Program-made: the position numbers and the translations under genes
Shown: positions 1 through 46,215 of the stretch, piece after piece
How the letters are laid out: every line of letters begins with the position of its first letter
Position numbering within the stretch: position 1 is the first letter of the stretch
DNA from: Eledone cirrhosa
Lineage: Eukaryota
Reading direction: 5' to 3'
NCBI GenBank assembly: GCA_964016885.1
Contig: OZ024744.1
Location: 26,536,001 to 26,600,000 of the forward strand
Length of the DNA stretch: 64,000 bases
The notes under the pieces: generated by a model
Told to the model about the DNA's origin: nothing
Seen by the model: only the letters and a program-made list of their open reading frames with translations
Database searches by the model: none

Positions 1-239
1 CTATATATATATATATATATATATATATATATATATATATATATAGACATGCATATATGTATATATATGTATATATACATACATACACACACACACACAC
101 ACACACACACACATATATATATATATATATATATACATATATATATATATATATATATATATATATATATATATATATATATATATATAATAATAACAAC
201 AACAACAAAAACAACAATAATAATAATAATAATAATAAT
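1..239. repeat. Compound microsatellite (AT)n/(AC)n followed by (AAT/AAC)n
   Basis: Directly visible. The AAT/AAC tract 188-239 abuts the 5'-truncated LINE. Confidence 0.97.
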
Positions 240-1731
240 TTGGGAAGAGTGAGAAGGAGTTGGATGTGCTTGTTGACACTGTCCGTATTTTCAGCAATGA
301 TATATGTATGCAATTTGGTATTAGTAAGTGTGGAGTCCTTGTGATGAAGAGGGGTAAATTGAGCTGAAGCAACGGAATTCAGGTACCAACAGGTGAGATG
401 ATAAAAGAAATTGACACTGAAGAAGGATACACATATTTAGGTGTTCTGGAGGCAGATGACATCAAGAACAAAGAAATGAAGGAATTGATAAAATCTGAAT
501 ACATTCGGAGAGTAAGGAGCGTATTAAAGTCACATCTGAACAGTAGGAATGCCATAAGGGCAATAAATTCCCGAGCTGTGTCTATTATCAGGTACAGTGC
601 GGGATTTCTGAGATGGAATGTTGCTGAACAAAAAGAAATGGATAGGAAGACTAGGAAGCTATTGACTATCTACAACATGTTCCACAAGAGGAGTGATGTC
701 GATAGACTCTACTTAAGGAGATCTGAAGGTGGAAGAGGTCTTATCAGCATAGAGGACTGTGTTCAGATGGAGAAAAACAACCTACACAAATACGTGACTG
801 ACAGTAGGGAGCCAATGTTCAGAATTGTACTGAAGGAGAGGACAATAGACCAGGGGATGTCCAAGGAGGAAATAACATCAAGGATAAAGAGCAAACTTCA
901 TGAAAAATCCCTTCATAGTACCTTCTTTGAGAAAACTGAATTCAGAGATCCACAGACATGGATCTGGTTGAAAAGAGGAGACCTTCAAAAGGCTACAGAA
1001 GAAATGCTAATGGCTGCGCAAGAGCAGGCCCTCAAACAAAAGTGGCTGAAACACCATATTTACAAGGGGGAGGCTAGCCCACTGTGTAGGATCTGTGGAG
1101 AGAGAGAGGAGACTGTGGCTCACATTGTATCAGAGTGTAAACACATAGCCCAGACTCATTATAAAGGCTGGAGACATGATGTGATGGGCAGGGTGATCCA
1201 CTGGCACCTATGCAATGTAAACAATTTACCACATTCTGAGAAATGGTATGAGCATAGGCCAGAGGCGGTGATTGAGAACAGTCAGGTGAAGGTGCTGTGG
1301 GATTTTAGGATACAGACGGACAAAAAACTGGAACACAATAGACCTGACCTGGTGGTTGTGGACAAAGAAAAAAGATCGTGCCTGATTGTGGATGTGGCCT
1401 GCCCGTTCGACACGAGAGTGCAAGAGAAGGAGAGGGAGAAAATTAACCGATACCAGGACCTAAAGTGGGAGGTGAAAAGGATTTGGAACTGCCATGAAGT
1501 CAAAGTGATCCCGATTGTCATAGGCGCACTGGGGACTATCTCCAAAGGTTTCCAGGGATGGTTAAAGAAAATCGGCCCCTCCACGCTTTTTGGAACGCTT
1601 CAAAAGGCATGCTTGCTTGGAACGGCAAGAACCCTCCGATACGTCCTGAATATCTGAGGCTGCAGGTAGTGGCTTGATATTCAATCCAACGGACTTTCCA
1701 GTTAACCAACATCAATGACTGAGATTCAAGG
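240..1731 (+). mobile_element. Dong/R4-like RLE non-LTR retrotransposon, family 1, 5'-truncated copy
   Basis: ORF 398-1657 has the RT thumb, a CCHC knuckle (CRICGEREETVAHIVSEC), RHD and a PD-(D/E)xK nuclease (RPDLVVVDKEKRSCLIVDVACP). The short 3'UTR ends gactgagattcaagg followed by (AAC/AAT)n. Near-identical to the copies at 28453, 32005 and 44424. Confidence 0.92.
398..1657 (+). pseudogene. C-terminal RT thumb/CCHC/restriction-like endonuclease portion of the Dong/R4-like ORF
   Basis: 419-aa open frame with CCHC and RPD..D motifs. The upstream frame has a stop at about 365 and is truncated at the microsatellite. Confidence 0.88.
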
Positions 1732-2020
1732 AATAACAATAACAATAATAATAATAATAATATTAATTAGGTTTTCTTTATTAACCACAAGGGTTTACAT
1801 AAAGTAGACATTAAGGACAGTACAGGACAATACAGGACGGTACAAATGGGCATTTCTGCATGTAAAAGACAAAAAAGAGGATATAACAAAAAAATAACAA
1901 TGAAAAATTCCCCAATAGGGGGGAGACTTCGAAGGGACATTTGTGGAGAAAGCCCAGTAAAAGGCCACAGTGACCCTGACCACCAGGTCAATTGTCCTCT
2001 TCCAGTTTTCCACCTTTAAT

Positions 2021-44423: not shown

Positions 44424-46108
44424 AAGTATGAAGTCCTGGGAAACAGAGCTAACATCAGGTGGAGAATCCTTGTGAGGCGTGAAGATCAAGAGAGTTATCT
44501 TCCAGGGAAATAGTTCGGCCTCTTTGTTGTTTGTCCTTGCCCTCATACCCCTGTCCCTCATAGTGCGAAAAGTGAGAGCAGGATACAAGTTGGAAACAGA
44601 AGAGTTTACCATCAACCACCTTCTCTTCAAGGACGATCTAAAACACTTTGGGAAAAAGGAGAGGGAGTTGGATGTACTTGCTAACACTGTATTTTCAGCA
44701 ATGATATGTGTAATTGAATTTGATGTGGAGTCCTAGTGATGAGGAGGAGTAAATTGAGCAGAAGCAACGGAATCCAGGTACCAACAGGTGAGATGATGAA
44801 GGAAATTGACACTGAAGAAGGATACGAATATTTAGGTGTTCTGGAGGCAGATGAAATCAAGAACAAAAACAAATGAAGGAATTTATGAGATCTGAGCACA
44901 TTAGGAGAGTAAGGAGCGTATTAAAATCACATCTGAATAGTAGGAATGTCATAAGTGCAGTAAATTCCCGAGCTGTGTCTATTATTAGGTACAGTGCGGG
45001 AATTCTGAGATGGAATGTTGCTGAAGAAAAAAAAATGGATAGGAAGACTAGGAAGATAATGACTATCTACAACATGTTCCACAAGAGGAGTGATGTCGAT
45101 AGACTCTACTTAAGGAGATCTGAAGATGGAAGAGGTCTTATCAGCATAGAGGACTGTGTTCAGATGGAGAAAAACAACCTGCACAAATATGTGGCTGACA
45201 GTAGGGAGGCAATGCTCAGAATTGTACTGAAAGAGAGGACAATAGACCAGGGGATGTCCAAGGAGGAAATAACATCAAGGAGAAAGAGCAGCCTTCAGGA
45301 AAAATCCCTTCATAGTACCTTCTTTGAGAAAACTGAATTCAGAGATCCACAGACATGGAACTGGTTAAAAAGAGGAGACCTTAAAAAGGCTACAGAAGGA
45401 ATGCTAATGGCTGCGCAAGAGCAGGCCCTCAGAACGAAGTGGGTGAAACACCATATTTACAAGGAGGAGGCTAGCTCACTGTGTAGGATCTGTGGAGAGA
45501 GGAGACTGTGGCTCACATTGTAGCCCAGACTCACTATAAAGGCTGGAGACATGATGTGATTGTCAGGGTGATCCACTGGCACCTATGCAAAGTAAACAAT
45601 TTACCACATTCTGAGAAGTAGTATGAGCATAAGCCAGAGTCGGTGATAGAAAACGATAATGGTGAAGTTGCTGTGGGATTTTAGGATACAGGCGGACAAG
45701 AAACTGGAACACAATAGACCCGACCTGGTGGTTTTGAACAAGGAAAACAGATCGTGCCTGATTGTAGATGTAGCCTACCCATTTTACACAATTGTGTAAG
45801 AAAAGGAGAGGGAGAAAATTAAGCGATACCAGGCCTTATAGTGGGAGGTAAAAAGGATTCTGGACTGTCATGAGATCCAGATCATCCCGATTGTCATAGA
45901 TAGCACTTGGTACTATCTCGAAGAGTTTTCAAGGATCGTTAAAGAACATCAGTCCAGACCCATTTTTTGAACACTTCAAAATGCCTGCTTGCTGGGAACA
46001 GCAAGAACCCTCCGATACGTCCTGAATATCTGAGGCTGCAGGTAGTGGCTTGATATTCATTTCAACAAACTTTCCAGTTAAATAACGTCAATGACTGAGA
46101 CTCCAAGA
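44424..46108 (+). mobile_element. Dong/R4-like LINE family 1, older 5'-truncated copy
   Basis: Collinear with 29028-30686, with more substitutions and stops. Same 3'UTR. Confidence 0.9.
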
Positions 46109-46120
46109 AGTAAAACAAAA

Positions 46121-46215
46121 TTGTTTCTACTTTTGACACTAAGCCATCAATTATCCTAGTGCATTAATGGTGCTTTATTCTTTCGACCTCATAAGGATGA
46201 AAGGCAAAGTTAACC
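46121..46215 (-). mobile_element. Truncated SINE (family of 5668-5853) in the tail of the Dong copy
   Basis: ttgtttctactttt...tcgacctcataaggatgaaaggcaaagttaacc. Confidence 0.82.

What the first reader, a model, noticed from the sequence alone, without database searches (positions are those of the whole stretch)
188..46215. (AAT)n microsatellites as a shared, strand-partitioned landing pad for RLE-LINEs, Tx1 LINEs and a SINE
Seen: chains such as AAT-Dong(+)-AAT-Tx1(-)-AAT-Tx1(-)-AAT-SINE(-)-AAT-SINE(-)-AAT (188-9249), Tx1(-)-AAT-Dong(+)-AAT (22630-30725) and Dong2(+)-AAT-Tx1(-)-AAT-Dong(+)-SINE(-) (36008-46215). All five Dong/R4 family 1-2 copies read in the AAT sense. All AAT-flanked Tx1 and SINE copies read in the ATT sense. 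Established: Dong/R4 elements target TAA repeats, and some Tx1-clade elements target other microsatellites. Inference: an APE enzyme and an RLE enzyme converged on the same triplet repeat but nick opposite strands, and each Dong tail creates a new site, building self-propagating tail-to-tail clusters.
Basis: partly seen in the sequence, partly recalled or inferred. Interest (0 to 1): 0.75.

Follow-up and report, generated by a model that had tools for sequence, protein, structure and literature searches.

The report
Two LINE clades share AAT repeats
In this probably octopod genome, two unrelated kinds of jumping gene sit in the same AAT/ATT repeats and almost always face opposite ways, likely because their enzymes cut opposite DNA strands, while an abundant short element that likely borrows one of the enzymes needs only a five-letter piece of the repeat.

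Summary
Of 1,502 exact 5' ends of the Tx1-like (APE) LINE, 1,405 directly follow ATTATTATT in one phase (about 0.2 expected) and 0 follow AATAAT. Dong/R4-like (RLE) LINEs use the same tracts in the AAT sense; no reversed Dong junction was seen. Opposite first-strand nicks are inferred, not assayed.

Three corrections. (1) The SINE is not microsatellite-specific: 4 of 45 randomly sampled copies end in 4 or more ATT units. It lands at Y|ATTAT with 10-21-bp target duplications and shares the Tx1 3' hairpin, so it likely rides the Tx1 machinery. (2) Tail-to-tail joints are not special: head-to-head and head-to-tail joints are as common. (3) That Dong tails create new sites is unproven, and only 12 of 38 truncated Tx1 copies keep a 5' ATT run.

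A sister Tx1 family sits on (ATCT)n and a third RLE family on (CATA)n. Each part has a precedent (Kibi/Koshi, Dong, Keno/Utopia, TRAS/SART, SINEU). An (ATT)n-targeting Tx1 was not found in my paper searches; Repbase and Dfam were not searchable. This scan reported the same system in at least nine other windows of this genome.

The parts
188..239 (+). AAT/AAC tract, 5' flank of a truncated Dong1
240..1733 (+). 5'-truncated Dong1 (R4-like RLE LINE); C-terminal CCHC and RPD..D endonuclease motifs read by eye
1734..1761 (+). AAT tract, tail-to-tail Dong1/Tx1 joint
1762..7720 (-). full-length Tx1-like LINE (ORF1; APE-RT-zinc-finger ORF2, broken by stops and frameshifts)
5665..5858 (-). SINE inside Tx1 ORF1 at a non-repeat site, 20-bp target duplication beginning with ATT in element sense
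7721..7744 (+). AAT tract, head-to-tail Tx1/Tx1 joint
7745..8990 (-). 5'-truncated Tx1-like copy of a diverged subfamily (about 75% nt to the first), AAT run at its 5' junction
9004..9081 (-). SINE 3' fragment between AAT tracts
9082..9111 (+). (AAT)10 tract
9112..9240 (-). 5'-truncated SINE, short AAT run at its 5' side
22627..28398 (-). Tx1-like LINE, 5' end intact, 3' end missing (no AAT at 22627)
28399..28452 (+). (AAT)18 tract, head-to-head Tx1/Dong joint
28453..30695 (+). 5'-truncated Dong1
30696..30725 (+). (AAT)10 tract, head-to-tail Dong/Dong joint
30726..35579 (+). full-length Dong1 with about 1.3 kb 5' UTR; its 5' 16-mer has 1,359 genomic matches (Dong1 and Dong2 together)
35580..35645 (+). 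AAT tract, Dong1/Dong2 head-to-tail joint
35646..39932 (+). Dong2, truncated in its 5' UTR (36% aa to Dong1 over the C-terminal part; matches R2 proteins, not L1)
39933..39970 (+). AAT tract, tail-to-tail Dong2/Tx1 joint
39971..44409 (-). 5'-truncated Tx1-like copy of a diverged subfamily (about 79% nt), AAT run at its 5' junction
44410..44423 (+). short AAT tract, head-to-head Tx1/Dong joint
44424..46109 (+). 5'-truncated older Dong1, tail decayed
46119..46215 (-). SINE 3' part abutting the Dong tail
47201..48735 (-). third RLE family (24-34% aa to Dong1 and Dong2), (CATA)n at both ends
59634..60200 (-). fragment of a sister Tx1 family that sits on (ATCT)n

Best explanation
An APE-type LINE (likely Tx1 clade) and RLE-type Dong-like LINEs sit in the same (AAT)n:(ATT)n tracts facing opposite ways, likely because the Tx1 enzyme nicks and primes on the AAT strand while the Dong enzyme does so on the ATT strand, and the SINE likely borrows the Tx1 enzyme at a shorter ATTAT site. 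Shown: flanks, polarity, phase, the SINE site motif and duplication lengths, the shared 3' hairpin, and clustering. Inferred: the Tx1 nick is 5'-ATAAT^R-3' (a T^A step inside the repeat), the second nick lies about 10-21 nt away, and ATT at the RNA 3' end pairs with the primer. Also inferred: every insertion splits a tract and leaves repeats on both sides, so each copy adds a site for either family, and arrays grow with all four joint types.
For: Tx1 5' ends: 1,405 of 1,502 follow ATTATTATT in phase, 0 follow AATAAT, background 1.3e-4. A second, non-homologous 5' end does the same in 11 of 11 copies, and two further 5' ends in one copy each. Tx1 3' ends: 90 of 90 are followed by ATT and 76 of 90 by 3 or more units. 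Dong: 49 of 49 3' ends run into AAT; 23 of 33 resolved 5' junctions have an AAT run by script, 0 have ATT; 971 AATAAT matches (some double-counted) against 1,359 5' ends. Across 364 tracts, 222 Dong junction calls are in AAT sense with no true reversal, and 151 Tx1 termini are in ATT sense with 1 true reversal. SINE: 62 of 124 copies show duplications of 8 nt or more, against a shuffled mean of 10. Strict non-repeat sites (35) have median length 16; the base before ATTA is C or T in 31 of 32 against 60% background, P=2e-6. That base lies outside the duplication and differs from the SINE's last base, so it points to the enzyme. The SINE 3' 32 nt match four Tx1 ends (p 0.0005-0.0015) but not Dong ends (p 0.79, 0.89), with a conserved CYTGT loop and compensating stems. 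Tx1 3' ends run into ATT in contigs of two other coded organisms.
Against: Only 12 of 38 truly truncated Tx1 copies have an ATT run at the 5' junction (10 of 41 by the script). Four show duplications in imperfect repeats, 3 abut TTC, 1 abuts AAT and 18 show no repeat (sorted by eye). The 93.5% figure for full-length copies may therefore be raised by ATT carried in the RNA. Later deletions probably explain some misses (several full-length copies lack 0.6-2.9 kb), but this was not tested. About 4 SINEs sit in the AAT sense at tracts, against 70 calls in ATT sense. No nicking assay, empty allele, RNA evidence or named Tx1 reference was available.
Confidence: 0.72

Rival explanations
1. The Tx1 enzyme recognises only a short Y|ATTAT motif, as the SINE shows. 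The long ATT flanks arise mostly from RNA: transcription starts in the upstream tract and runs into the downstream tract, so both cDNA ends anneal to ATT repeats and carry units along.
For: The 5' junction has one fixed phase in 1,405 of 1,502 copies although SINE duplication lengths vary from 10 to 21. Truncated copies keep ATT far less often, 12 of 38. An AATAAA signal lies about 6 nt before the Tx1 3' end with no poly(A) after it. Target-RNA annealing is discussed for SART1 and R1Bm (PMC7265360, passages).
Against: 12 of 38 truncated copies still abut ATT runs, far above the background of about 2e-4 per position. 76 of 90 3' ends have 3 or more units. Where duplications are readable (for example L156) no extra tail is added. 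This rival changes the weight of the two causes, not the polarity.
Confidence: 0.2
2. The repeats are tails made by each element during reverse transcription, and the arrays are passive piles in regions that tolerate insertions.
For: Dong tails carry inherited AAC-interrupted units. One Dong tail joins Tx1 internal sequence directly (L051). A further, unclassified element ends in ATT at 8 of 91 tracts and never appears with ATT at its 5' side.
Against: Tails cannot explain 5' flanks, which are repeats in 1,405 of 1,502 Tx1 and 23 of 33 Dong junctions with the right polarity. Joints within 200 bp are 5 of 46 against under 0.1 after jitter.
Confidence: 0.05
3. The arrays are assembly artefacts or segmental duplications joined at microsatellites.
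For: One SINE trio at 45.777 Mb of C1 and a satellite-borne pair (L060, L151) look duplicated.
Against: Full-length copies are 91-97% identical with unrelated flanks. The same ATT ends appear in contigs of other organisms. Polarity is family-specific.
Confidence: 0.03

Closest known systems
Kibi (TC)n, Koshi (TTC)n and crocodilian (TTCC)n/(TTTC)n Tx1 families (PMC4494074, passages and section 15; PMC3812793, passages)
   Same: APE-type Tx1-group LINE that prefers a microsatellite; T-rich strand in element sense; a few copies here abut TTC runs.
   Different: Target is (ATT)n, with a sister family on (ATCT)n; invertebrate host; thousands of copies; shared with an RLE LINE. Relationship to Kibi/Koshi could not be tested.
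Dong, DongAg, DongBg (TAA microsatellites; PMC3812793, passage)
   Same: Same target; a mollusc member (DongBg) is already listed. Dong-R4 and L1-Tx1 are reported as recently active in Octopus vulgaris (PMC13282606, Table 1).
   Different: Two families only 36% identical use the tract, and a third RLE family uses (CATA)n. That review lists Dong among APE elements; the window's copies carry an RLE-type C-terminus and match R2, not L1.
Keno (Tx1, APE) and Utopia (RLE) in U2 snRNA genes (PMC4640811, passages)
   Same: An APE and an RLE element converged on one target.
   Different: There the 3' flanks are identical (same site, same direction) and the target is a gene; here polarity is opposite and the target is a dispersed repeat that the elements subdivide.
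TRAS1 and SART1 in (TTAGG)n (PMC7265360, passages)
   Same: Two LINEs enter one tandem repeat in opposite directions; TRAS1 endonuclease nicks a T^A step.
   Different: Both are APE elements of related type at telomeres; here the two enzymes are unrelated folds and the sites are interstitial.
SINEU mobilised by Tx1-Mar (PMC4494074, sections 14 passage and 16)
   Same: A SINE likely carried by a target-specific Tx1, with weaker target preference than the LINE.
   Different: Here the link rests on a shared 3' tail with a compensated hairpin, and the head is tRNA-like (B-box recognised from recall) rather than snRNA-derived.

Membership tests
Tx1 clade (L1 group) | ORF2 with N-terminal APE, RT and C-terminal zinc finger | tested here: met
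   Pfam Exo_endo_phos, RVT_1 and zf-RVT in a 1,139-aa natural copy and in window fragments
Tx1 clade (L1 group) | closer to L1 ORF2p than to RLE elements | tested here: met
   L1 ORF2p E 1e-49 over residues 5-852; R2 proteins E 1e-19 over the RT only
Tx1 clade (L1 group) | separate ORF1 with a CCHC knuckle (feature recalled, not from a call) | tested here: inconclusive
   a C-x2-C-x4-H-x4-C motif is seen by eye in a 526-aa ORF1; no relevant Pfam hit
Tx1 clade (L1 group) | RT tree groups it with named Tx1 elements (Tx1L, Keno, Kibi, Koshi) | not testable with these tools
   no named Tx1 protein among the hits; Atlas unavailable
Microsatellite-specific Tx1 (Kibi/Koshi type) | target repeat in more than 20% of flanks (criterion of PMC4494074, section 6 passage) | tested here: met
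   1,405 of 1,502 5' ends; 76 of 90 3' ends; 12 of 38 truncated 5' ends
Microsatellite-specific Tx1 (Kibi/Koshi type) | target is TC, TTC, TTCC or TTTC | tested here: not met
   target is ATT; TTC at 3 of 38 truncated 5' junctions and one 3' end
R4/Dong clade | RT followed by CCHC and a PD-(D/E)xK-type endonuclease, no APE | tested here: met
   Dong2 matches only R2 proteins, E 2e-24, through the CCHC to the PD motif; Dong1 motifs read by eye; no APE hit
R4/Dong clade | inserted in TAA repeats | tested here: met
   49 of 49 3' ends and 23 of 33 resolved 5' junctions
R4/Dong clade | RT tree groups it with Bombyx Dong and R4 | not testable with these tools
   no named reference fetched; the Dong paper is not held
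Tx1-mobilised SINE | 3' tail shared with the partner LINE and the same insertion signature | tested here: met
Tx1-mobilised SINE | mobilised in trans by the LINE protein | not testable with these tools
   needs a retrotransposition assay
Microsatellite-specific SINE | repeat tract in more than 20% of flanks | tested here: not met
   4 of 45 random copies and 19 of 124 in the enriched set end in 4 or more ATT units

The most novel reading that the evidence does not exclude
One octopod Tx1 lineage with a fixed 3' CYUGU-loop hairpin has switched microsatellite targets within a single genome (ATT and ATCT, both entered at Y|AT), in parallel with an RLE lineage (AAT and CATA). The switch is made mainly by the RNA's last bases pairing with the nicked strand, on top of one relaxed T^R-cutting endonuclease. 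This would be a natural series for separating endonuclease choice from RNA-primer pairing in LINE targeting.
Probability: 0.25. Interest if true: 0.7.

Novelty: new variant of a known kind. Interest (0 to 1): 0.5.

Why it matters
It adds an (ATT)n target, and a sister (ATCT)n target, to Tx1-type LINEs. It shows an APE and an RLE enzyme dividing one dispersed repeat by strand. The SINE's clean target duplications give a predicted cut site (ATAAT^R, about 16-nt stagger) that can be tested directly. Thousands of copies are involved: at least 7,811 Tx1 and 4,277 Dong1 3' ends against about 66,000 tracts of 5 or more units, with 1,275 direct tail-to-tail joints. So many long AAT tracts in this genome are element junctions, which matters for microsatellite markers, repeat annotation and transposon hotspots in octopods.

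Tried and rejected
The metagenome scan with the ORF2 alignment returned only distant elements (22-36% identity); their flanks were not analysed. Three protein searches and a cluster look-up (79) gave no named Tx1; the closest named hits are Argonauta hians proteins (57-73%). The protein Atlas was unavailable (71, 72, 76). No RNA holder was listed, which says nothing about expression. Laid contigs (66, 68) could not show empty alleles; run X13 gave no cover. A mistyped pattern found nothing; the DNA search answered the question. The Dong paper PMC309301 is not held.

Rejected: the SINE as microsatellite-specific; tail-to-tail as a preferred geometry (6 of 13 Tx1 tails face a Dong tail against 18 of 91 tracts overall, P=0.019, but tracts are clustered and not independent); horizontal transfer (coded organisms cannot be placed).

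Paper searches. None showed an (ATT)n-targeting Tx1. Kojima and Fujiwara 2004, the figure and supplements of PMC4494074, Repbase and Dfam were not seen and may hold one.
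Full report
Window anatomy. Five Dong-like copies lie on + and four Tx1-like copies and the SINEs lie on -, separated by AAT tracts. The second and third chains are one 23.6-kb array (22627-46215): a full-length Dong1 occupies 30726-35579 and Dong2 begins at about 35646. The Tx1 at 22627 lacks its 3' end. One SINE (5665-5858) sits inside Tx1 ORF1 at a non-repeat site with a 20-bp duplication. The host is probably an octopod: the closest named proteins are from Argonauta hians, 57-73% identical. 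The genome has 3.0 Gb.

What the elements are. A natural 1,139-aa ORF2 has APE, RT and zinc-finger domains and matches human L1 ORF2p (E 1e-49) far better than R2 (E 1e-19). ORF1 shows a CCHC motif by eye. This is an L1-group element; the Tx1 label is likely, but no named Tx1 was available for a tree. Dong2 matches only R2 proteins, through the CCHC and PD motifs. Dong1 shows the same motifs by eye and is 36% identical to Dong2. Full-length Tx1 copies are 91-97% identical.

Tx1 flanks genome-wide. The 5'-terminal 25-mer has 1,502 exact matches. Of these, 1,405 directly follow ATTATTATT and none has AATAAT within 4 bases. All 30 loci read had an ATT run. In 39 arbitrary 10-kb stretches, 17 of 135,359 G positions follow ATTATTATT, so about 0.2 were expected. 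A second subfamily with an unrelated 5' end follows ATT in 11 of 11 copies, and two more 5' ends do so in one copy each. The 3' 24-mer has 7,811 matches. I examined 90 of the first 100 listed, all on contig C1: 90 are followed by ATT and 76 by three or more units. In that set 17 5' ends lay outside the fetched DNA, 32 were full length (29 ATT by script, 0 AAT) and 41 were called truncated (10 ATT, 1 AAT by script). By eye I dropped 3 of the 41 as not truncated. Of the other 38, 12 abut an ATT run, 4 show duplications in imperfect repeats, 3 abut TTC, 1 abuts AAT and 18 show no repeat. Four of the 18 join internal Dong sequence on the other strand, as a deletion across a head-to-head joint would. 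This is the main result against a pure endonuclease model.

Dong flanks. Dong1 3' ends number at least 4,277. The shared Dong1/Dong2 5' 16-mer has 1,359 matches, with 971 AATAAT matches just upstream (5 of the 100 listed rows are double counts). By eye 28 of 30 loci have an AAT or AAT/AAG run and none has ATT. Of 50 loci fetched, 49 gave a 3' end and all 49 run into AAT. Of 33 resolved 5' junctions, 23 have an AAT run by script and 0 have ATT; five of the misses are breaks of the alignment in the 5' UTR.

Polarity and geometry. Among 364 tracts in all fetched G000 DNA (a set enriched for these elements), 222 Dong junction calls are in AAT sense; the 4 opposite calls are a tract inside Dong's own UTR. 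151 Tx1 termini are in ATT sense; of 6 opposite calls, 5 are low-complexity hits and 1 is real. SINE calls are 70 in ATT sense and 5 opposite, from 4 elements. Joint types: 26 tail-to-tail, 29 head-to-head, 24 Tx1 tandem, 50 Dong tandem. Genome-wide there are 1,275 direct Tx1/Dong1 tail-to-tail joints and 65,958 tract starts of 5 or more units in one phase. In 91 tracts from the first 11.3 Mb of C1, taken from that list, 18 end in a Dong tail and 37 were called LINE-bounded (about 4 falsely), with median 13 units against 7. Six of 13 Tx1 tails face a Dong tail (P=0.019, not independent). Clustering is strong: 28 of 46 Dong 3' ends lie within 20 kb of a Tx1 3' end (jittered mean 3.6-5.3, maximum 13) and 49 of 100 Tx1 ends lie near another (9-13). 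So arrays are real, but the tail-to-tail form follows from fixed polarity.

The SINE. Its 3' pattern has 7,013 matches. Of 124 copies, 108 are followed by ATT and 97 by ATTAT, but only 19 by four or more units; 62 show duplications of 8 nt or more against a shuffled mean of 10 and maximum of 18. In the random stretches 4 of 45 end in four or more units. At 35 strict non-repeat sites the duplication has median 16 nt (10-21) and starts with ATTA in 32; the preceding base is C or T in 31 of those 32 against 60% background. That base is outside the duplication and differs from the SINE's last base, so it likely reflects the enzyme: a nick at ATAAT^R on the other strand. The SINE's last 32 nt align with four Tx1 ends (p 0.0005-0.0015) and not with Dong ends. 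A CYTGT loop is closed by ACC/GGT or GCC/GGC in Tx1 and by GGC/GCC in the SINE; the inner three pairs hold in 245 of 296 matches, a sample biased by my patterns.

Target switching. A fragment at 59634-60200 belongs to a sister family, 66-70% identical in ORF2 for its better-preserved copies against 35-41% for unnamed outside relatives. In 30 best-matching loci, 28 3' ends run into ATCT, 14 into three or more units and none into ATT. Its 5' ends were mostly unresolved, so specificity is less firm. A third RLE family at 47201-48735 has (CATA)n at both ends in the window and after 8 of 9 3' ends reached in other loci. Contigs from two other coded organisms show Tx1 3' ends running into ATT (66 and 30 contigs) and 5' ends preceded by the tract.

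Mechanism. In target-primed reverse transcription (established knowledge) the strand opposite to the element's sense is nicked first. Tx1 therefore would prime on the AAT strand and Dong on the ATT strand. Each insertion leaves repeats on both sides, which accounts for arrays without new synthesis of repeats. Whether tails add units is open. RNA-target pairing probably helps: an AATAAA signal lies just before the Tx1 end with no poly(A), and the 5' phase is fixed.

Literature seen. PMC4494074: passages and sections 15, 16. PMC4640811: passages. PMC3812793: passages. PMC7265360: passages. PMC13282606: first third and passages. PMC4758252 and PMC8967140: passages. Together they give precedents for microsatellite-specific Tx1, TAA-specific Dong, APE/RLE convergence, opposite entry into one repeat, and a Tx1-carried SINE. 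Searches showed no (ATT)n-targeting Tx1, and the octopus papers do not discuss these targets in the passages seen. Supplements, Repbase and Dfam were not seen. The scan's own notes report this system in at least nine other windows; they are not independent support.

Verdict. A real, strong and testable pattern; a new target and a new combination within a known lifestyle. New variant of a known kind, interest 0.5.

Noticed in passing
window 59634-60200 (-); L350-L379: Sister Tx1 family whose 3' ends run into ATCT in 28 of 30 loci and into three or more units in 14.
   Followed up: partly
window 47201-48735 (-): Third RLE family with (CATA)n at both ends here and after 8 of 9 3' ends in other loci.
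   Followed up: partly
window 30726-31430 and 35646-36200: Dong1 and Dong2 are only 36% identical in protein but appear to share the start of the 5' UTR, which suggests a promoter swap.
   Followed up: partly
L152, L155, L164, L188, L190, L176, L187: The same Tx1 ORF2 occurs with at least three unrelated 5' regions; each starts with G right after ATT.
   Followed up: partly
window 5665-5858 and L172: The same SINE insertion site inside Tx1 ORF1 appears in two Tx1 copies, either inherited or a hotspot.
   Followed up: no
L013, L014, L384, L418 and others: An unclassified abundant element ends in (ATT)n at 8 of 91 unselected tracts and may seed tracts that Tx1, Dong and the SINE then use.
   Followed up: no
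window 9541-11289, 13667-15213 (+), 51380-52165 (-): Penelope-like elements (GIY-YIG hit at 51380-52165; the other two by motif reading), not tied to AAT.
   Followed up: no
window 53205-55263 (-): APE-RT fragment of another LINE, RTE-like by recall.
   Followed up: no
window 13094-13705 and 16195-16798: 612-bp inverted repeat at 98% identity around the Penelope-like element at 13667-15213.
   Followed up: no
L173:100-1300: The Tx1 3' region shares 0.2-0.65 of its words with runs of about 13 other coded organisms; two of four laid runs hold it at high copy and two at low depth.
   Followed up: partly
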